A stretch of DNA of 64,000 nucleotides from Eledone cirrhosa (Eukaryota): positions 76,942,001 to 77,006,000 of the forward strand of contig OZ024744.1 in NCBI GenBank assembly GCA_964016885.1, given 5' to 3'. Made by a program: the position numbers and the translations under genes. The notes beneath the pieces were generated by a model. It saw nothing but the letters and a program-made list of their open reading frames with translations. It was not told where the DNA came from and did not search any database. This document shows, piece after piece, positions 4,806 through 60,215 of the stretch (within the stretch, counting starts at the first letter, position 1; each line of letters begins with the position of its first letter).

Positions 4806-4850
4806 GAAAGTAAAACAAAGAAGCCTTCAATACATCAAAAGTCTTTATTA

Positions 4851-4888
4851 GCCAACAATGTTTCGTCCTATTAAGGACTCATCAGGGC
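4851..4888 (-). ncRNA. Canonical minimal type I hammerhead ribozyme
   Basis: GCC-CTGATGA-GTCCT-TAAT-AGGAC-GAAAC-ATT-GTT-GGC. All conserved core nucleotides are present and helices I, II and III pair. Confidence 0.85.
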
Positions 4889-5433
4889 AATTAAAACAAC
4901 AAGAAGTATTATCGGCCAATACAAGCCGGAAACTCCGAAGAATATGGAGTGTACATACACTAAAGTATTGCAAGATTATGTGTAAAAATATATAATAAAA
5001 ATATATAATAAAAATCACTAAGGAGGTGTATAACATATAGAACCATATTACAAATATAGTCCAAAGCAAAAAAACCCTAGAGCTAAACAAAGGTGGTTAT
5101 ATAGAGCAGGAATTATATATAATACAATGTAATATAATATAATATACCTTTACCAATATTAAAATTACAATAAAAATCAAAAGGTACAATATACATATGT
5201 ATATATGTACGCACACGTACGCACACATACACATACATCAATACACATATCCATCTTCAACTGCACAAATTAAACCTTATTAAGAGTTTGAATATAAATA
5301 AGCATGATAGGAATAAAAATAATAATAATAATAATAATAATAATACATATACCCAATATACATGAGGTAATAATATGATATTATTATAAGTAGCACATAT
5401 AATATATAATAAACTATACAATTATATACTATA

Positions 5434-7619: not shown

Positions 7620-8385
7620 GCGGCAGATTGAACATTGCAGCCTGAGTGGCGTGCTCCAGCTGCGCTTAGCAGACAAAATGGCAAAGGCATTGCCGCAGAG
7701 AATGGCCAACGACAAACGCTGCAACAATCACCCTACATCACGGGGCATACACCAGCTCGGACGGTATGCTTTAGCTGCGCCCAGCAGAAAAATAAAATGC
7801 CGAAGTTATTAGCCGAGGAGAATGACCAGTGATAAACGCTGCAACAACCACCCTACCTCACTGAGCTCCTACCGTAGGCGGACTGCATGCTTCAAAAATG
7901 GCGAAAGCATTGCTGAGGAGAATGACCAGTGACAAACGCTGCAACAACCACCCTACCTCACTGAGCTCCTACCGTAGGCGGACTGCATGCTTCAAAAATG
8001 GCGAAAGCATTGCTGAGGAGAATGACCAGTGACAAACGCTGCAACAACCACCCTACCTCACTGAGCTCCTACCGTAGGCGGACTGCATGCTTCAAAAATG
8101 GCGAAAGCATTGCTGAGGAGAATGACCAGTGACAAACGCTGCAACAACCACCCTACCTCACTGAGCTCCTACCGTAGGCGGACTGCATGCTTCAAAAATG
8201 GCGAAAGCATTGCTGAGGAGAATGACCAGTGACAAACGCTGCAACAACCACCCTACCTCACTGAGCTCCTACCGTAGGCGGACTGCATGCTTCAAAAATG
8301 GCGAAAGCATTGCTGAGGAGAATGACCAGTGACAAACGCTGCAACGGCCATCTTACCTCACAGAGCTCTACCTTAGGCGAACTGC
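7620..8385 (-). repeat. 100-bp tandem array derived from a CRE-type LINE C-terminus
   Basis: GAGGAGAATGACCAGTG starts at 7815, 7915, 8015, 8115, 8215 and 8315. The minus strand reads GWLLQRLSLVILLSNAFAIF, matching LQRLSLAILCGNAFAILSA in the adjacent diverged unit. Confidence 0.8.
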
Positions 8386-9184: not shown

Positions 9185-9963
9185 TGAGTGATATGATTTA
9201 CGTTAAGTGATGTGGTTTATACTGAGTGATGTGGTTTATACTGAGTGATTTGGTTTATACTGAGTGATGTGGTTTATACTGAGTGATTTTGGTTTATATT
9301 GAGTGATATTGTTTATACTGAGTTATATGGTTTATACTGAGTGATATGGTTTATACTGAGTGATGTGGTTTATACTGAGTAATGTGGTTTATGCTGCGTG
9401 ATATGGTTTATTCTGAGTGATGTGGTTTATACTGAGTGATATGGTTTATACTGAGTGATATGGTTTATACTGAGTGATATGGTTTATACTGAGTGATATG
9501 GTTTATACTGAGTAATGTGGTTTTTATTGAGTAATGTGGTTTATACTGAGTGATATGGTGTAAACTAAGTTATGTGGTTTATACTGAGTGATATGGTTTA
9601 TACTGAGTGATATGGTTTATACTGAGTGATATGGTTTATACTGAGTGATGTGGTTTATACTGAGTGATATGGTTTATACTGAGTGATGTGGTTTATACTG
9701 AGTGATATGGTTTATACTGAGTGATGTGGTTTATACTGAGTGATATGGTTTATACTGAGTGATGTGGTTTATACTGAGTGATAGCTTTATACTGAGTGAT
9801 ATGGTTTATTATTAGTGATATGGTTTATACTGAGTGATGTGGTTTATACTGAATGATATGGTTTATTATGAGAGGTATAGTTTATACTGAGTGATATGGT
9901 TTATACTGAGTGATATGGTTTATACTGAGTGATATGGTTTATACTGAGTGATATGGTTTATAC
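9185..9963. repeat. 19-bp minisatellite (GGTTTATACTGAGTGATRT)n, about 40 copies
   Basis: Direct reading of the 19-bp periodicity. Confidence 0.95.
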
Positions 9964-19644: not shown

Positions 19645-20510
19645 TCTATTTAGTACGGCTGTTACTTAAATATATACATACTACTGTACGTCTGTATACA
19701 TATATGTATGTACGTGTACATACTTATATTAAAGTAACAGCCGTACTAAGAGTGGGAAATGAAATTTCGTTTCATTTTTTCCGTTTATCGTTTTCGGTGC
19801 ACCCGGCCGATTAACCCACTCGATATGCAAATTGGGCTACTCAGCCGTTAATATGCATAAGGTAAGTATATACGTTCAACAATCTGGCAGGAAGGTATAC
19901 GTTTCTGACGATAGCTAATAAGCTTGAAACTAGTACAGCGTTCCTTTGTCAGTGTTGAACAAACGAGCAACGATGGTTGCTGGACACTACGGCTTAATAC
20001 GGGATGTTTGTTTACAAACACACCGAGTATTATAATAAATGTTCGGTGAATCCATACGTACATATATATGTGTGTGCATGTATGTATATATATATATACA
20101 TACTACTGTACGTCTGTATACATATATGTATGTACGTGTACATACTTATATTTAAGTAACAGCCGTACTCAGAGTGAGAAATGAAATTTCGTTTCATTTT
20201 TTCCGTTTATCGTTTTCGGGGCACCCGGCTGATTAACCCACTCGATATGCAAATTGGGCTATTCAGACGTTAATATGCATAAGGTAAGTATATACGTTCA
20301 ACAATCTGGCAGGAAGGTATACGTTGCCGACGATAGCTAATAAGCTTGAAACTAGTACAACGTTTCTTTGTCAGTGTTGAACAAACGAGCAACGATGGTT
20401 GCTGGACACTACGGCTTAATACGGGATGTTTGTTTACAAACACACCGAGCATTATAATAAATGTTCGGTGAATCCATACGTACATATATATATGTGTGCA
20501 TGTATGTATA
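19645..20510 (+). mobile_element. Tandem dimer of a 422-bp non-coding retrozyme-like unit, one HHR per unit
   Basis: Exact 422-bp offset with HHRs at 19899-19941 and 20321-20363. A short inverted tip lies at about 19650-19668, and the flanks are (TA)n. Confidence 0.8.
20321..20363 (+). ncRNA. Type I hammerhead motif (also 19899-19941 on plus and 49433-49475 on minus)
   Basis: Consensus ACGTTG-CTGACGA-T-AGCT-AATA-AGCT-T-GAAAC-TA-GTA-CAACGT. This copy has CCGACGA, while the other two have CTGACGA. Confidence 0.75.
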
Positions 20511-20511
20511 T

Positions 20512-21064
20512 AACCCTTGTATCATAGACACCCTATATATTTCCAGGGGTACTTAGTACCTGTGGGGATATTATCTTCTTTTAATATTCTCCGTTATGTA
20601 GAGAACAAATCTGTTGTTCTATTTAGCTGCTATTTTTAGTGGCGAGGTAGACAATACGTCTATGTTTACTTCCGCTTCTACTACGGACTGGTTCACGCAT
20701 AGGTCAAATTTTCGGCCCCATTCGATCCTGTGCTAGCTGGCAGATGGCAATATATTTTGCCGTTCCTGGGACTTTTAGTCCTAGGAAAGGAAAATGCTTT
20801 CTGATGATCTAAACTTTTCCATTGGAGGTCCCTATGGATCTCCAATCTTTTGTGAAGTGAAACCGATCGGTAAAAGCAATTGGAATAGGTAAATATTTAA
20901 ATTATATTTTTTTATTTATTTTCAAAAATTGTTTGAATCTTGCTTGCTCCGCTTATCTCAATATTATAGTTCTGGTATGTCAAATTAATACCATAGAACA
21001 ACCCTTGTATCATAGACACCCTATATATTTCCAGGGGTACTAAGAACCTGTGGGGATGTTAACT

Positions 21065-21072
<8 letters not shown>
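20512..21072 (+). mobile_element. 488-bp non-coding unit with ~70-bp terminal redundancy and an internal HHR
   Basis: AACCCTTGTATCATAGACACC.. occurs at 20512 and 21000, with the HHR at 20795-20878. Confidence 0.7.
20795..20878 (+). ncRNA. Type I hammerhead motif with extended helix II
   Basis: TGCTTT-CTGATGA-TCTAA-ACTT..[ATTGGAGGTCC-CTAT-GGATCTCCAAT]..AAGT-GAAAC-CGATCG-GTA-AAAGCA, with a perfect 6-bp helix I. Confidence 0.7.
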
Positions 21073-21115
<43 letters not shown>

Positions 21116-21130
21116 TATATATATATATAA

Positions 21131-21983
21131 ATAATTGGTATATCTACCAACATATTTATACAGAAGTATACTTATGCTAGCAAGATATAGGTTTTGTCTT
21201 AGTAACTTTGTGGTTCAATACAAAAATGTAGAACAATTATATGAAAGACGTAAAATAAGAAAATTATAATAATTAACTTACTTAAGTTTCACTACTTAGT
21301 TTCTGAAAGGGGATATACATAGTGTTCAAAACCATGGAGAATTCCTTTCTTCATGAGAGAGTCAATTCTCGGCTAAGATCCCTGGCGATAGGCGGACACA
21401 GGGATCTCAAACAAAAATAATTCAGTGAATGGAAAAGAAGCAAGCGCGGACTAAATTTCAAGACACTGAAAATTTCACTACCTTCCCGGTCAGTGGCAAA
21501 TTCAAAAGAATCAATCACGTGTCATCGAGGTTAATCTGTGAGGAGTGGGGTGTTAAAAAGACAGTAGCCAAAATATTACTATGAATCATAATAGTAATTC
21601 AGGCAAATTTTTGCTCAACAAATAATTTGGAGATAATTATAAAGAATTAGTATATCTACCAACATATTTATACAGAAGTATACTTATGCTAGCAAGATAT
21701 AGGTTTTGTCTTAGTAACTTTGTGGTTCAATACAAAAATGTAGAACAATTATATGAAAGACATAAAATAAGAAAATTATAATAATTAACTTACTTACTTA
21801 AGTTTTTGTTTGAGATCCCTGTGTCCGCCTATCGCCAGGGATCTTAGCCGATAATTGACTCCCTGATGAAAAAAGGAATTTTCCATGGTTTTGAATACTA
21901 TGTATATCCCCTTTCAGAAACTAATTAGTTGGAGTGAAACTTAAGTAAGTAAGTTAATTATTATAATTTTCTTATTTTACGTC

Positions 21984-21990
<7 letters not shown>
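21131..21990. mobile_element. 512-bp unit as partial tandem plus inverted tip with HHR
   Basis: 21138-21283 repeats at 21650-21800, and about 21240-21417 is inverted at about 21790-21990. The HHR is at 21858-21935. Confidence 0.7.
21858..21935 (+). ncRNA. Type I hammerhead motif with long loop II
   Basis: ACTCC-CTGATGA-AAAAAGG..CCTTTCA-GAAAC-TAATTA-GTT-GGAGT. Helix I is a perfect 5 bp and loop III is palindromic. The inverted copy has GAAAGG, which pairs with CCTTTC. Confidence 0.65.
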
Positions 21991-22031
<41 letters not shown>

Positions 22032-22080: not shown

Positions 22081-22171
<91 letters not shown>

Positions 22172-22447
22172 GGAGGTGAGTTTTATTGTAGTACAATAAA
22201 GCAATGCAGATATCGGATAAGAAGCATTCTACAGTTTGAAGGTTAAAAAACACTTGTGAATATATGTTGATTCAAAACTGCACTATTCACAAGTGTTTTT
22301 TAACCTTCATATCATGTCTGCCTATTTTATCTTATGAAAACACAAATATTATTGCATGATGATATTTGTTTTTGAAATGCGCATAATAAAATACATGGAA
22401 CTCTTTTAACCATCTTTTGATCTTATATATATATATATATATATATA

Positions 22448-22555
<108 letters not shown>

Positions 22556-22599
22556 AGTAAGTTATAGTTCGCTTGAAGCATTGTGTATTGAGGTATAAA

Positions 22600-24415
22600 C
22601 GTTTGTATTTGTAAAGCCAAAACAATGCAGGTATGGACATAGAATATAAATGCAAATGCAAAAGATATTGTTAACAATTAGTCTTTTACCTTAAATTTAT
22701 TTAAATGTCCTTAATTTTCGAGGTAATATCTCTTCTTCGGAGAGAAGTAAAGCGGTTAAACCAGTGTTCTAAATGGCTTGCCAAGTCATGCTGACAGGAA
22801 ATGGTATAGAGTATCTGTTCTATCTCTAATGTCAAAGAGTTAAGGTTAGGTGGATAAAAAGTAGTCTCCCTTTAAAAGGGGTTTTGTACATGTATGTTTA
22901 AGTGTGTGGGAGAATACGCAAGGTGTAAGTATGTGTGTGTGTGTGTGTGTGTGTGAGTGTGAGAAGATATGTCTATACGTAAATGTGGGGGATAGATGCT
23001 CTCTCGTGTTAGAACTGGTCTTTGTGTGTGTATGTGTGTGTGTGCGTGTGTGTGTGGGAGGGGGGTAAGTATGGGGCTAGATGCTCTATCAAGTTATAAA
23101 TTGGGTGTTGAGTTCTAGTCTATTATATGTTGTGTTTTGTCTATAATTAGTGCTTCTTTAATTCTAAGATTGTCGAGGTTTCTTTCCTTAGTTTCTATCC
23201 TAATTGTTATGGTTTTGTCGATGTTTTTGCATTTTACTAGGTGTTTCTTAAATGAGGAAGCGTTAGTATTGAGGTGTTCTTTTATTCTTATGTGAAGTAG
23301 TCTGGTGGTGCTACCTACGTAGAAGTTGCTGCATTTGTCGCACTCTAGTCTGTATACGACGTAAGCCTGGTGGCATCGGTCTGTGTCGTTGATGTGGCAG
23401 TTGGCTAGCCTGCAGCGGCTGTCATGTCTGGTGGAGTGTCTTTTGGTTAGCTGTCCGCGTAGAGAAGGTCCTGAGTGGGCTAGTTGGATATCTAGTCCCT
23501 CTCGTCTGATAGCTCTGCGGATGGGCTGTTGTTGTTTCATCACTGAAGTGTGGGAGCTTCAGGAAGCAAGTGTTAGTGCCTCGGGTGTGGTGTCCTCTGT
23601 TCTTTCTGGCACGGTTCGTGGTGGATGTCGGTATCCGTTCAGTTTGAGTACTTCCCAGAAATGTGTGGTCTGTGTGTCTCGGTCTCTAGCGTCGGTGCAT
23701 TTGTTCCGGATACGTGTAATTCGTTCCTTATGTATCCGAACTAAGCGCCGGCTGGGAGGGCCGATCTGAAATGTACGAACAGGTGCCTGCTGGCGGGTTT
23801 TTAAGAATTAAGGAAGCACTAATTATAGACAAAACACAACCACCAATCAATAATAGACTAGAACTCAACACCCAATTTATAACTTGATAGACCATCTAGC
23901 CCCATACTTACACACACACCCCGCCCACACCCACGCACATGCACACACACACACACATGCCCCTACACCTCCACTTATTCTCTCTCACACACACATACAC
24001 ACACAAAGACCAGTTCTAACACGAGAGAGCATCTATCCCCCACATTTACGTATAGACATATCTTCTCACACTCACACACACACACACATACTTACACCTT
24101 TCACGTATTCTCCCACACACTTAAACATACATATACAAAACCCCTTTTAAAGGGAGACTACTCTTTATCCACCTAACCTTAACTCTTTGACATTAGAGAT
24201 AAAACAGATACTCTATACCATTTCGTGTCAGCATGACTTGGCAAGCTATTTAGAACACTGGTTTAACCGCTTTACTTCCCTCCGGAGAAGAGTTATTATC
24301 TCGAAAATTAAGGACATTTAAATAAATTTAAGGTAAAAGACTAATTGTCAACAATATCCTTTTGCATTTGCATTTATATTCTATGTCCATACCTGCATTG
24401 TTTTGGCTTTATAAA
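22600..24415 (-). mobile_element. 5'-truncated Penelope-like element with inverted copy of its 3' end
   Basis: About 22600-23170 is inverted at about 23805-24415. It contains a GIY-YIG ORF and degenerate minimal HHRs at 22708-22744 (-) and 24278-24314 (+), and has (TA)n flanks. Confidence 0.85.
23115..23543 (-). pseudogene. PLE GIY-YIG endonuclease domain remnant
   Basis: C..C linker followed by VVYRLECDKCSNFYVGSTTRLLHIRIKEH..FKKH..LRIKEALII. Confidence 0.85.
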
Positions 24416-24479
24416 TATATATATATATATATATATTGGTAAACGGAAAAGAAAATGCTGACAAATTGTTCACAGTGAA

Positions 24480-24711
24480 AAATAGTTTAATTAGGAATAA
24501 GTAAAAATTAGTAATAGTACTGGTTAGTATTCAGTTTTGGTTTTAAGTTTTACCGGTTGCGCATTTCTAATGCTTTTCAAAAAACAATTTTGATCGGTCG
24601 GTAGAGGTCATGTGAATGTTAAAAATTGATTTTGCGCCAAATGTAGGTTTGTGTTGGCTGATTAAGAAGTCACTGAAAAATAAGTCTTTCAAAACAAATA
24701 TGTGTGTGTGT

Positions 24712-24792
<81 letters not shown>

Positions 24793-26910
24793 AAGAGGTT
24801 CGTTGTTGTGATAATGGTCAGCAGGGATGTGTGTGCGAACCGCAGCCTGTTGACAGTTCAAATACCTATTAAGACAAGTGTGTGTGTGGGGGCGGTGTAG
24901 CAGAGTAATTCGTTGTAGAGAGATGGTCGGTAGGAATGTGTCTGTACGTGTGTCGGGGATAGTTTAACATGTTAAAAGATATTTTTCAGCTCTTGTCTTA
25001 TACGGAGCAGTGTGTGTGTGTGGGTGTGTGGGGGGGTGTAGCAGAGTAATTCGTGGTAGAGGGATGGTCAGTAGGAATGTGTCTGTACGTGTGTGGGGGA
25101 TATTTTAACATGTTAAAAGATATTTTTCAGCTCTTGTCTTATACGGAGAAGTGTGTGTGTCGGTGTGTGGGTGTGTGTGTGCTTGAGGGTGTGGGTGTCT
25201 GTGTGTGTGTATATATGTCTCTGTGTATGTTAATGTACGCGTGTGTATGTGTGTGTGTATATATGTGTGTGTGGGTGGACTAGTATTTTTGTGATACTGG
25301 TAAAAATGGTGTACATTTTTCGATATTTTCAGTAGAAACGATTCTCTCAATAGAACATCAAAAACCTTAATAATAAAAGGTGTGAAATGATATATAGTAT
25401 TGGCATAATACCAAGGTGTGTGTGAGTGTCCAGATTGTACGTACTGCAAGGGGAATCCATTAGGCCTTGCCGTATTGGAATACTTGTGTACAAATATCTA
25501 TGTGCCCATCAGTGTGCAATGCATGTGTGCGTTTATGTATGTGTGTGTGTGTGTGTATAGCAGAGTAATTCGTGGTAGAGGGATGGTCAGTAGGAATGTG
25601 TCTGTACGTGTGTGGGGGATATTTTAACATGTTAAAAGATATTTTTCAGCTCTTGTCTTATACGGAGCAGTGTGTGTGTGTGTGTGTGTGTATGTCTCTT
25701 TGTATGTTAATGTACGCGTGTGCATATGTGTGTGTATATATATGTGTGTGTGTGTATATATGTGTGTGTGTGTGTGTGTGTGAGAATGTGTGTGTGTGTG
25801 GGTGGACCAGTATTTTTGTGATGCTGGTAAAAATGGTGTACATTATTCGATATTTTCAGTAAAAACGATTCTCTCAATAGAACATCAAAAACCTTAATAA
25901 TAAAAGGTGTGAAATGATATATAGTATTGGCATAAGACCAAGGTGTGTGTGAGTGTCCAGATTGTACGTACTGCAAGGGGAATCCATTAGGCCTTGCCGT
26001 ATTGGAATACTTGTATACAAATATGTATGTGCCCATCAGTGTGCAATGCATGTGTGCGTTTATGTATGTGTGTGTGTCGGCACCTTTATATCTATAGACA
26101 TCAAAAGGTATGCAAATTTGTGTATATTTGTGTTGCACCATAGAACATGTGTGTTTACGTATGTCATTGTATTTATATGTTGATAGAGATGTATGCTGAT
26201 GTAGGTATGTATGTTGACGTGTGTATGTTGTGGGTTCGTCTTAGGGAGAAGCGTTTAGACGGGGTCCGTATTTGTTAATAAAGTGAGATTCCTTGCTGAT
26301 GCGCTGGGTGTGGTTGGCATTATCTTTAAATTTGTAGAGGGGAAAGATTCTGAAGTTGGGATGATTTTGGGCGGCACAGGTATCAATGTGTTCACTCAGT
26401 GGTATTTTCCTGTATTCCCGTATTTTAATTTGGGATCTATGAACAGTCATGCGTTGGTGGAGGCTGTTTTTGGTCTGGCCTATGTATTGTTCTCGACAAC
26501 CTGAGCAAGTTAATACATATATTAGATTTTCTGATGCGCATGTGAAATTGTGTTTTACTATAAAATGTTGTCCTTCTTTGAAATAGAATTCCGAACCCTC
26601 TATTAGGTTGATGCATATGCCACAGTTGGGTCTATCGCATCTTTTTACTGTGGGTTTCGTTGTTGTGGTTGGCAGTACTTTGGCATGTGTTAGGATGTTT
26701 TTCATTGACTTAGATTGTCTTTTGCTCTTTATGATATCGTGTGTTCGTAGGATTTGGTTCATTCTATGGTCCTTTTTCAACACAGGGATGTTCTGGAGGA
26801 TGGTGTCAAAGGCCTCATTGTTGAGGGGGTTGTGTGTGGAGATGTATGGAAGAGCTTTTAGTTTCGGTTGATTTACTTTAGGGTGTCTAAGATCCTGGGT
26901 ACTGAGTTTT
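24480..26910 (-). mobile_element. 5'-truncated Penelope-like element with long, internally duplicated 3' UTR
   Basis: GIY-YIG ORF 26241-26783, a ~520-bp duplication in the UTR, (GTA)n at 24713-24792, and a degenerate U3-A8 HHR at 24547-24585. Confidence 0.8.
26241..26783 (-). pseudogene. PLE GIY-YIG endonuclease domain (frame open, element truncated)
   Basis: CDRPNCGIC..NFTCASENLIYVLTCSGCREQYIGQTKNSLHQRMTVHRSQI..LSEH..RISKESHFI..LN. Confidence 0.9.
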
Positions 26911-28029: not shown

Positions 28030-30375
28030 CCAAGATCACTGTAAAAATAAAAACATCATCACAGATTAACAAACAGCTGGAAAGAAAGGGGTTTGGGGAT
28101 GTGCTGAACAACTCCTAATCAACAAAACTGCGATGTCGGAGGTGCGACAACTTAGGAGGAATATGACTACAGTCTGGCTGGACTACAGGAAAGTTTTCGA
28201 TTCTGTTCCCCACTCCTCGATGATAGAGTCCCTCCGACTTGCTAAAGTCCCAGACATTATTATCAGAGCCATAGAGAAGCTGTTTTCTTCTTAGGCTACT
28301 TACTATCCTAAAGTTAAAGACAGAGAAGGAGGACTCTATTTTCACTGATAAAATAAAATATCGCAGGGGTATATTTCAAGGAGACAGTCTCTCTGTGATA
28401 TTATTTATCCTGTCATTAAACCCCTTGTCCTTTCTTCTCAAGAAATGTGTAGGATACATCATTGGCTCACAGGACAGAAATGCGAACCTAACCCATAATT
28501 TCTTAGTGGATGATCTGAAACTCTATGCCAAGAACATGGATGGGATGAAGAAAAATCTTAACCAGGTTACAACATTCTCAAATGATATAGGAATGTAGTT
28601 TGGCCAAGATAAATGCTTATATATGACTGTAAAGCGGGGAAAAACAACAACCCAATCTAGCAACATTTGTATCAATGGCCTAACTGTTTCACCGATATCT
28701 GATGAGGAATCTACAGATACCTGGAGAGAGATGAGAACATATCCTATAATTTTATCTGTAATAAGGAGCGCGTAACCAGGGAATACTACACCCGATTAAG
28801 AAAGATATGGTCATCGGAACTCTCTGCGCAAAACAAAACAGTGGCTCACAATGTGTTTGCTGTGCCTGTCCTAACACCAACGTTTGGAATACTCAATTGG
28901 ACGATAGACGAAATCCGAGCAATTGATGTTAGAACTCGAAAAATACTAAACAACACCGAAAACTTCCACATCAACAGTGACATAGACCACCTTTACTTGA
29001 AAGGTAAGCAGGGAGGCAGAGGCTTAACATCAGTCCAGAAAGCATTTGAATGTCGCATCATATCCCTCCGACAACATGTGCGAACCTCGAAGCGTAGGAG
29101 CCCGTCTCTCGAACAAGTCTATCTGCATGAAACAGATAAGATCATGAGAGTTGGGAAGGAACTCTTCGAAAGATATTCTCTGTGTGATAATCAAAATCTC
29201 ACACCCAGGGAAGTCGCTCAGCAGTATCGCAGTGAATCCATGGATAAAAAACTGCATGCTTATCAGCAAAAAGTCATGCATGGATATGTTACCAGGAAGC
29301 TCCAGAGTGAGAGTAATATAGATAAAGAAAGTAGTCTATCTTGGACCAACAACCGCTATATTGGCTCCCACTTTGAAGGATACGCTTTTGCAATCCAAGA
29401 ACAGGAAATCAACACGAAATACCTGTTTCACAAAAGAGATAGGGATGCAGGCAAAACACCTAGATGTGCTAACAAGTGCAGACTCTGCAGAATTAATATC
29501 GAAGATGTCACCCCTGTCATAAACAGCTGTCCAAAGATGTCATCGTGGTACTATCTACCTATGAGGCATGATGTAGTGGCCAAAACACTGTACAATGCAA
29601 TTCGTAGAAAAGATAGCCCGATAATAAACACATTAAAAACTTCAGCAACGTGGAAGACATACATATACATAATATGAAAGAGTACTGGTGGAATCTTCCA
29701 GTAAAAGCCCCAATAAAATGCAGGCATAACAGACCAGATGTTATGATATGGGACAGGGAAAAGAAAGCAGGCACAGTCTGATATGGGACAGGGAAAAGAA
29801 AGCAGGCACAGTAGTGGAAATTAGCTGCCCAGATTAGTGAAAAGGAGAATATTTATGGAGAACTGATGAGAAATCTGCAGATACTCCACACTGATTACAC
29901 CTACAGATTTATGCCTGTGATTATTGGGGCACTGGGATATGTTAGTAACTGCCTCAATACAAATCATGAGAAGCTAGGCTTCACAGGAACAGAAAGAACA
30001 CAACTAGTTAGGAAATTACAAGTGCAATCCATTAATGGAACAGTAAAAATATGTAAAACATTCCAAAAATTCTGCATCTAATAACTGCATAAACACATGT
30101 ACAGAAACTAAGCATATACACATGCACACATACAACTCAAAACATACACATCCACACATACAATAACATCCATATCTACACATGCATGCATACATAAATA
30201 TCTACCTAGTTGATGTTGTGTAAATTCCAATGAGAGAGCCTTGTGTCTATGTTAGAAACCGACTCTCTCTTTATTGGGAAAAAATTTGTGAAATTATAAA
30301 ACCAGAAGAATATACATAAATTATAAAACCAGAAGAATATACATAAATTATAAAACCAGAAGAATATACATAAAT
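28030..30375 (+). mobile_element. 5'-truncated R4/Dong-type non-LTR retrotransposon (RT + zinc knuckle + RLE), frameshifted
   Basis: WLDYRKVFDSVPHS, RGIFQGDSLS, FLVDDLKLY, CRLC..SC, RHDVVAK, HNRPD, EISCP, MPVIIGALG. The 3' end has a 27-bp unit repeated three times. Confidence 0.85.
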
Positions 30376-49056: not shown

Positions 49057-49169
49057 TATATATATAATACATACATGCATACAAACATACATGCAAAGAT
49101 ACATACAAATATAAATACACATTTACATAAATACATATATATGTTGTATGTATATATATATATATATAC

Positions 49170-49729
49170 ATGGAAAAAATGAAACGAAATTTCATTTCTC
49201 AATCTTAGTACCGCTGTTACTTAAATATAAGTATGTATACGTACATACATATATGTATACAGACGTACAGTAGTATGTATATATATACATACATGCACAC
49301 ATATATATATGTACGTATGGATTTACCGAGCATTTATTATAATGCACGGTTTGTTTGTAAACAAACATCCCGAATTAAACCGTACAGTGTTTAGCAACCA
49401 TCGTTGCCCTTTTGTTCAACACTGACAAAGGAACGATGTACTAGTTTCAAGTTTATTAGCTATCGTCAGCACCGTATAGCTTCCTGCCAGATGGTTGAAC
49501 GTCTGAAAGTATATACTTTCCTTATGCATATTAACGGCTTTGTCAGTGTTGAACAAAAGGGCAACGATGGTTGCTAGACACTACGGCTTAATTCAGGATG
49601 TTTGTTTACAAACAAATCGAGCATTATAATAAATGTTTGTTAAATCCATACGTACATATATATATATATATGTGTGCATGTATGTATATATATATACATA
49701 CTTACTGTACGTCTGTATACATATATGTA

Positions 49730-49735
<6 letters not shown>
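49170..49735. mobile_element. Third copy of the 422-bp HHR unit (minus strand) with inverted partial copy
   Basis: 49170-49538 is the reverse complement of the 19645-20510 unit in circularly permuted order. 49539-49735 is the same sequence in plus orientation. Confidence 0.8.
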
Positions 49736-49810
<75 letters not shown>

Positions 49811-59783: not shown

Positions 59784-60215
59784 GATATTAAATAAATGGA
59801 AACTATATTTATAAAACCATATTTATTTCATTATATATATTTCAGGGATATCATATTAACAATATGTTATGCCTTCCTCAGACAAAATACAATATAGACA
59901 GTTTTATAGATAAATAGATTTGACATACCGTTCAACATCGACTTGTATTTGAAAAAGTTGATTTGGCAGTGAAAAATTGTAAACAGAAAGAAAGAAAGAG
60001 AGAAAGAAGGGAAGAAAGAAAGAAAACGGAGAAAAAGAAGAAAAAGAAGAAATGCATGCAACAAAATAGAGAGATGGAAAGATAGATAAAGAGAAGAACT
60101 TCATGTAAAGAAACAGAGAGAGATATATAGAGAGAGAGGAAATAGATAGAGATAGATATATATAGAGAAAAGTAGGTAGTTGAACATCCGTTGAATGAAC
60201 GTATCAATGATACAT

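What the first reader, a model, noticed from the sequence alone, without database searches (positions are those of the whole stretch)
19645..21990. Nest of three unrelated non-coding, hammerhead-carrying retrozyme-like units (422, 488 and 512 bp)
Seen: three sequence-unrelated units abut, separated only by TA-rich microsatellite. Each is present as more than one unit length (a full dimer, or 1.1-1.3 copies with terminal redundancy), has no credible ORF, and carries one type I HHR motif per unit. Two PLE GIY-YIG remnants follow directly (22600-26910). Established: metazoan non-LTR retrozymes are small tandem units with type I HHRs that yield circular RNAs and are thought to use PLE machinery. 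Inference: this is a diverse cephalopod retrozyme system copied from circular or multimeric RNA into microsatellites. I am not aware of these families being described.
Basis: partly seen in the sequence, partly recalled or inferred. Interest (0 to 1): 0.9.

Follow-up and report, generated by a model that had tools for sequence, protein, structure and literature searches.

The report
Ribozyme retroelements riding Penelope-like transposons
Three short non-coding repeats, each carrying a predicted self-cutting (hammerhead) RNA and present in hundreds to tens of thousands of copies, sit side by side here and show the insertion footprint of Penelope-like retrotransposons, whose enzyme most likely copies them; they are new families of a known class, and their copies give unusually clear clues to how that copying would work.

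Summary
Confirmed: three non-coding units (A 422, B 488, C 512 bp; family-typical C 521), each over one unit long with a type I hammerhead. Exact ribozyme-motif counts genome-wide: 25,742 (A-type), 185 (B), 9,169 (C-type); controls 0. They fit animal non-LTR retrozymes, already proposed to be non-autonomous Penelope-like elements (PLEs). Added here: each family ends at two fixed 3' sites into (TA)n, the PLE 'tail'; 36 of 37 classifiable head-to-head pairs join one long and one short end; most unselected copies read through the cut site; C 5' ends pile up at its cut (15 of 64, 3 expected; post hoc); 4 of 52 C junctions join Hydra-clade-like PLE sequence directly, none Neptune/Poseidon-like; no homologous PLE end found. 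Corrections: A abuts B without a microsatellite (A lost about 65 bp); B and C tails share a motif; two of five ribozyme copies are broken; a fourth hammerhead element (Hydra-like PLE end, 22168-22428) was missed. The nest reflects shared TA targeting. Cleavage, expression, circles and host taxon are untested. The scan noted a similar PLE footprint on other DNA (e1-7810660). New members of a known kind; interest 0.5.

The parts
19645..19668 (-). Short inverted piece of family A (start of the A tail, imperfect), head-to-head with the dimer, ending in (TA)n to the left
19667..20511 (+). Family A dimer, 2 x 422 bp; both borders fall in A's internal TA-rich segment; the usual short 3' end (about 65 bp further) is missing at the B junction
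19899..19941 (+). A hammerhead copy 1 (core at 19905, predicted cut after 19935); base of stem I mismatched, likely inactive
20321..20363 (+). A hammerhead copy 2 (U4C core variant, 6-bp stem I, palindromic helix III, GUA, predicted cut after 20357)
20152..20210 (+). A 'tail': about 56 nt between the family's short and long 3' end sites (read through in this copy)
20512..21070 (+). Family B, 1.15 units of 488 bp, ending at the family's long 3' end into (TA)n
20795..20878 (+). B hammerhead (long helix II, palindromic helix III, GUA, predicted cut after 20872)
20963..21070 (+). B 'tail', about 107 nt, two predicted hairpins; motif shared with C tail
21070..21133 (.). (TA)n target tract between the long ends of B and C (tail to tail)
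21134..21796 (-). Family C main arm, 1.3 units (512 bp here, 521 in an intact copy); long 3' end at the TA tract; its 5' end lies 6 nt downstream of the ribozyme cut site; internal hammerhead (21285-21362) broken
21803..21992 (+). Family C inverted arm, ending at the family's short 3' end into (TA)n: a long+short head-to-head pair with the main arm
21858..21935 (+). C hammerhead, intact core, GUU triplet, predicted cut after 21930
22168..22428 (+).
22553..24417 (-). PLE remnant 1 (GIY-YIG at 23118-23558) with inverted arm; neighbour, not homologous to A/B/C
24793..26910 (-). PLE remnant 2 (GIY-YIG at 26244-26900; left border approximate); neighbour, not homologous to A/B/C

Best explanation
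A, B and C are high-copy, non-coding, hammerhead-motif repeats that end at two fixed sites in (TA)n tracts and are likely non-autonomous retroelements (non-LTR retrozymes) copied by the reverse transcriptase and GIY-YIG nuclease of a Penelope-like element, probably of the Hydra clade. Shown: units, copy numbers, two fixed 3' ends, TA flanks, long+short pairing, read-through of the cut site. Inferred model: arrays are transcribed; paired hammerheads (palindromic helix III) cut out unit RNAs that are partly circularised. The PLE enzyme nicks both strands of a (TA)n tract and starts cDNA inside the RNA at two sites flanking a 56-107 nt hairpin tail, each ending in a few TA-like bases. One strand uses the long site and the other the short site. 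The two cDNAs run for variable lengths, often past the ribozyme site and beyond one unit, and join at their truncated ends to give head-to-head pairs. Repeated use of one TA tract, with loss of target DNA, built this nest (A, then B; C, D and two PLEs beside them).
For: 3' ends fall in two classes in 42 of 51 A, 60 of 62 B and 64 of 75 C pieces and run into (TA)n. 36 of 37 classifiable head-to-head pairs are long+short (Fisher p 2.5e-9; 13 further pairs had an unclassified end). PMC11167929 ties two internal RT start sites to the PLE tail. PMC8557442 describes inverted 5'-truncated copies, a tail at one end and (TA)n targeting. ORF-bearing PLEs of this genome show the same pattern (L135; six H1 loci). 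Unselected partner arms cross the cut site in 13 of 15 A, 10 of 11 B and 17 of 25 C cases, with no excess of indels there. Unit circles fold better than shuffles (z -5.3 to -7.4). Partner clue: 4 of 52 C 5' junction sites join Hydra-like PLE sequence with no TA between (L086, L087, L090, L197), plus 2 C-relative loci (L235, L245) and A in 3 of 20 H1 loci; none joined Neptune/Poseidon-like references. H1 has CxCX5C, CxxC/CxH and no CCHH, the Hydra marks of PMC8557442 section 11.
Against: No RNA evidence for transcription, cleavage or circles. Core conservation within families (0.98 A, 0.97 B) is barely above the rest of the unit (0.96). A-type covariation rests largely on one sequence found by the motif scan itself. 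Rfam gives no hammerhead hit. No PLE end homologous to A/B/C was found in 50 GIY-YIG loci, 30 tail-motif loci or 5 Hydra-like 3' regions. B (0 of 52) and A-centred loci (0 of 34) showed no Hydra junction. Mixed pairs obey the long+short rule in L086 and L245 but break it in L087 and L270, and a later insertion with target deletion can mimic them. One more long+long pair with a diverged arm (L079) fell below the identity filter. Loci are the top-scoring hits, not a random sample.
Confidence: 0.8

Rival explanations
1. Same PLE machinery, but the template is uncut multimeric transcript; the hammerheads are incidental to copying and no circle is needed.
For: PMC11167929: ribozyme mutants did not affect insertion in vitro and unprocessed RNA was the main substrate. 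Read-through of the cut site is equally expected. No 5' pile-up at the cut in A (1 of 39, 1.55 expected) or B (4 of 60, 3.7 expected).
Against: C 5' ends cluster at -4..+12 of the cut: 15 of 64 vs 3.05 expected; 10 vs 3.04 within +-8; 5 vs 1.7 within +-4. This suggests that cut RNA served as template, though the window was chosen after seeing the data and a palindrome at +7..+14 could cause it. Stems and core persist in relatives 70-85% alike.
Confidence: 0.35
2. A/B/C are solo or internally deleted pseudo-LTRs of autonomous PLEs present in this genome (the model of Li et al. 2026).
For: The preprint found pLTR homology for about 24 of 57 Xenopus families. Only 50 of 10,596 GIY-YIG candidates and a few Hydra-like families were examined here.
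Against: No homology to any PLE end examined. No tblastn similarity of the units to 12 PLE proteins (best E 0.038). All 30 tail-motif loci were again about 520-540 bp non-coding units.
Confidence: 0.3
3. They are satellites spread at the DNA level (unequal exchange or a DNA rolling circle), with chance hammerhead-like motifs.
For: Tandem arrays up to about 6 units occur (L030); Rfam gives no hit.
Against: Fixed 3' and variable 5' ends, strict long+short inversion pairs and dispersal over many contigs; motif absent from 1000 shuffles.
Confidence: 0.03

Closest known systems
Animal non-LTR retrozymes (Cervera & de la Pena 2020, PMC7229834)
   Same: Non-coding head-to-tail units with one type I hammerhead each, GC under 50% (0.34-0.38), thousands of copies, highly self-paired predicted circles, U-U mismatch at the base of helix II as in axolotl HHR_Amex2, co-existence with PLEs.
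   Different: Units of 422-521 nt are above the 150-450 bp given there. Mostly 1-2 units in inverted pairs. (TA)n targets with no visible target duplication. B and C have 47-51 nt helix II regions, and C has a GUU site. The parts read do not describe fixed ends or tails.
Retrozymes as non-autonomous PLE derivatives (Li, Clavereau & Pollet 2026, 10.64898/2026.07.22.740005)
   Same: Same conclusion that PLE machinery moves them.
   Different: That work rests on co-occurrence and pLTR homology in vertebrates (35 genomes, 4 invertebrates). Here the link is the insertion footprint and chimeric junctions, with no pLTR homology found.
Penelope-like elements: Poseidon PAc mechanism (PMC11167929) and Hydra clade (PMC8557442)
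   Same: Two fixed internal 3' ends (tail), inverted 5'-truncated partner, AT/(TA)n targets, type I hammerhead upstream of the ends.
   Different: No ORF. Tails of 56-107 nt versus 30-40 bp. All six start sites end in a few TA-like bases matching the target, whereas PAc starts at a non-homologous site.
Non-autonomous Chlamys elements such as MRC1 (PMC8557442)
   Same: Non-autonomous PLE passengers with head-to-tail copies.
   Different: [quoted passage not shown]

Membership tests
non-LTR retrozyme | Short non-coding unit in head-to-tail repeats | tested here: met
non-LTR retrozyme | One type I hammerhead motif per unit | tested here: met
   motif scan and column counts; Rfam model does not detect them
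non-LTR retrozyme | High copy number, dispersed | tested here: met
non-LTR retrozyme | Strongly self-paired predicted circle | tested here: met
   z -5.3 to -7.4 against 40 shuffles each, 4 monomers
non-LTR retrozyme | Self-cleavage of the RNA | not testable with these tools
   only an indirect hint: C 5' ends at the cut
non-LTR retrozyme | Expression as linear and circular unit RNAs | not testable with these tools
   needs RNA data that was not on offer (see Tried and rejected)
non-LTR retrozyme | No LTR, primer-binding site or polypurine tract | tested here: inconclusive
   terminal repeats are wrap-around of the unit, not LTRs; PBS and PPT were not searched
non-autonomous PLE | Two fixed 3' ends (tail) with variable 5' truncation | tested here: met
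non-autonomous PLE | Inverted 5'-truncated partner with the tail at one end only | tested here: met
   36 of 37 pairs
non-autonomous PLE | Microsatellite/AT-rich target | tested here: met
non-autonomous PLE | Sequence homology to the pLTR of an autonomous family | tested here: inconclusive
   none found, but the sample was small
autonomous PLE | RT plus GIY-YIG ORF | tested here: not met
Hydra clade (candidate partner H1, not the finding itself) | C-terminal EN without CCHH, CxCX5C linker, CxxC and CxH around E and N, (TA)n target | tested here: met
   against PMC8557442 section 11; RT motifs and phylogeny not tested

The most novel reading that the evidence does not exclude
These are independently arisen circular-RNA parasites that hijack Hydra-clade Penelope enzymes by mimicking the tail structure rather than by pLTR ancestry. 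One integration event can build its two arms from two different RNAs (retrozyme and PLE), and ribozyme-cut RNA is a real template in vivo. That would name the partner enzyme of animal retrozymes and give a role for the PLE hammerhead.
Probability: 0.3. Interest if true: 0.75.

Novelty: new member of a known kind. Interest (0 to 1): 0.5.

Why it matters
How animal retrozymes move and which enzyme copies them has been conjecture from co-occurrence and, in frogs, homology. These families carry the PLE footprint in near-quantitative form: two start sites, one per strand. They also point to a specific partner clade and define minimal RNA substrates (ribozyme to tail end, about 200-350 nt) for an in vitro assay of the kind in PMC11167929. 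This makes three open questions testable: partner identity, circle versus linear template, and the role of the hammerhead. With at least 35,000 exact motif matches they are also a sizeable repeat class of this genome. The local nest itself is ordinary TA-tract crowding.

Tried and rejected
Rfam: whole window and region gave no hammerhead hit on A/B/C; the miRNA hits are microsatellite noise. RNA: no RNA holder listed; the four runs of unknown kind are contigs and say nothing on expression, ends or circles. Autonomous parent by homology: none in 50 GIY-YIG loci, 30 tail-motif loci or 5 Hydra-like 3' regions; the two best A scores were TA-rich matches. Imprecise end-to-end template jumping at the cut: indel rates there are below average, so not supported. 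'H1 shares A's 56-nt tail length': rejected, H1's two ends are about 197 nt apart. Apparent junctions L047, L188, L190 and L200 were TA-run matches and were dropped. Within-locus versus between-locus divergence of A units (0.046 vs 0.058) does not separate circle from multimer. One search used a misregistered structure and was repeated. The C core summary line and the C end classes were mis-set in my scripts; I used the column table and instead. Earlier findings by place and by sequence returned nothing.

Full report
Observation. The region holds three non-coding units. A is a 422-bp dimer. B has a 72-nt repeat at spacing 488, and C has a 164-nt repeat at spacing 512 plus an inverted arm. ATG-started ORFs reach 71, 32 and 51 aa. 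A motif scan finds type I hammerheads at 20321-20363, 20795-20878 and 21858-21935: 3 hits against 0 in 1000 shuffles of the region, and 5 in the window against a mean of 0.03 in 60 shuffles. Rfam does not see them. A copy 1 and the main C copy are damaged. C's intact motif is in the inverted arm and has a GUU triplet that the family shares (76 of 78 and 77 of 79 at the two U columns).

Copies. DNA searches of the own genome (3.0 Gb) gave 608, 2511 and 2715 candidates, 40 scored each, with full-length copies 91-99% alike on many contigs. Exact motif counts are 25,742 (A and relatives), 185 (B) and 9,169 (C and relatives), with reversed controls 0. A tail pattern of C relatives gave 1,370. At these densities, and with shared targets, adjacency is expected; a second A-type locus lies at 49166-49753. 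At least 20 distinct hammerhead stem sets occur in the loci held. Core columns are 89-100% conserved, but the rest of the unit is at 96%, so young copies show little selection. Among 10 distinct A-type motifs 95.8% of cells pair and 5 pairs change on both sides; most of this comes from L014, found by the motif scan, so it is weak support. In B, helix III is palindromic in 27 of 64 copies and a 3-bp hairpin in the rest.

Insertion anatomy. Each family ends at two fixed sites followed by (TA)n: about 219 and 275 nt after the cut in A, 96 and 203 in B, 52 and about 158 in C. After removing overlapping loci, 42 of 51 A, 60 of 62 B and 64 of 75 C pieces end at one of the two. Of 50 head-to-head pairs, 37 had both ends classified and 36 were one long plus one short (Fisher p 2.5e-9). 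One more long+long pair with a diverged arm (L079) was dropped by the identity filter. This is the PLE tail. PMC11167929 (parts 1-2 of 4 read, the main text) shows two internal RT start sites bounding the tail and nicking of both strands at AT-rich DNA. PMC8557442 (passages and section 11 read) describes the inverted partner, the tail at one end and (TA)n targeting. ORF-bearing PLEs here do the same. All six start sites end in a few TA-like bases, unlike the non-homologous start reported for PAc. B and C tails align on a shared motif and fold into two hairpins (z -2.3 to -3.7 in 6 of 7; the window B tail -0.94), although the whole-unit score is not beyond shuffles.

Template. Partner arms, which the searches did not select, cross the cut site in 13 of 15, 10 of 11 and 17 of 25 cases, and junctions there are clean. 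The template is therefore mostly a circle or an uncut multimer. Unit circles fold at z -5.3 to -7.4. In C, 15 of 64 5' ends lie at -4..+12 of the cut against 3.05 expected (10 vs 3.04 within +-8), including the window's own main arm. A (1 of 39) and B (4 of 60) show nothing. The window was chosen after looking and a palindrome lies there, so this is a hint that cut RNA is sometimes the template.

Partner. No PLE end homologous to A/B/C was found; the sample is small. Four of 52 C 5' junction sites join Hydra-like PLE sequence with no TA between: L086 and L090 (family H1), L087 (D family) and L197. B had 0 of 52 and A 0 of 34, and none joined the seven Neptune/Poseidon-like references. C relatives add L245 and L235. 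A is fused to H1 in 3 of 20 H1 loci (L270, L275, L277), with 2-5 nt of microhomology at the two junctions I read closely. In L086, L090, L197 and L245 the PLE piece is a short ORF fragment between the retrozyme arm and an opposite PLE arm. A later insertion would need deletions of roughly 0.8-2 kb, so a shared integration event is the simpler reading (inference). Against it, the long+short rule fails in L087 and L270. The clade label rests on motifs only.

The nest. A's borders lie in its own TA-rich segment and B starts there, with about 65 bp of A missing, most simply B inserting beside A with target loss (inferred). B and C meet tail to tail across 21070-21133. D (22168-22428) is a tail-plus-ribozyme fusion with 693 candidates whose upstream sequence leads to a Hydra-like ORF end. 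Two GIY-YIG remnants follow.

Literature. PMC7229834 (parts 2-4 of 6 and passages read) defines non-LTR retrozymes, shows circles in coral, mussel and axolotl, and names PLEs as the likely movers. Preprint 10.64898/2026.07.22.740005 (parts 1-3 of 5 read, all main text; supplements closed and could list further species) argues PLE origin in vertebrates; 1 of 9 dimers it tested cleaved. PMC4209133 (passages) covers palindromic helix III and dimeric cleavage. Searches for 'hammerhead ribozyme'+'octopus' and 'retrozyme'+'cephalopod' listed nothing on such families, and searches listed nothing whose title or abstract start describes tails or a Hydra partner for retrozymes. Repeat databases were not searchable. 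An earlier scan note (e1-7810660) reports a similar TA-targeted PLE footprint for a tRNA-bearing unit in another genome; I did not test it.

Verdict. Real and well supported as new families of a known class. The added value is the mechanistic read-out from the copies and a testable partner. Interest 0.5.

Noticed in passing
window 22168-22428: Element D: inverted tail fused to the hammerhead end of a Hydra-like PLE; the 40 scored copies share this same short form (693 candidates), as if it recurs or spreads as a unit.
   Followed up: partly
window 49166-49753: Second A-type insertion (88-90% alike), itself a long+short head-to-head pair with an intact hammerhead at 49469 (-).
   Followed up: partly
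window 4847-4891 (-) and 59824-59889 (-): Two further type I hammerheads of other families: Rfam Hammerhead_1 29.1 bits, below gathering, and a motif also seen in L010.
   Followed up: no
L003:2441-2967: A/B chimera: a 334-nt A long-end piece sits inside a B piece with about 10 nt of B duplicated, next to an opposite A arm.
   Followed up: partly
L131:6884-8001, L122:5887-6622, L168, L160:2172-2743, L258: Diverged retrozyme-like relatives with other unit lengths (about 460-540 bp, 70-80% alike to A, B or C, or unrelated), so the system has many more families.
   Followed up: partly
L272, L270, L279 (family H1): Hydra-like PLE family with 2093 candidates, a hammerhead with a long helix II insert and an approximately 197-nt tail.
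   Followed up: partly
L121, L122, L123: Long uninterrupted PLE frames (938, 844, 1096 aa stop to stop); L121 has RT and GIY-YIG hits.
   Followed up: no
window 7815-8385 and 9185-9963: A 100-bp x 5.7 array (98% match) and a 19-bp x 41 minisatellite.
   Followed up: no
window 28070-30081 (+): Broken LINE-like RT frames without a GIY-YIG test; label from recalled motifs.
   Followed up: no
L259:2713-7359: Three near-identical 1547-bp tandem copies that each contain a small C-relative head-to-head pair: local DNA duplication or assembly artefact.
   Followed up: no
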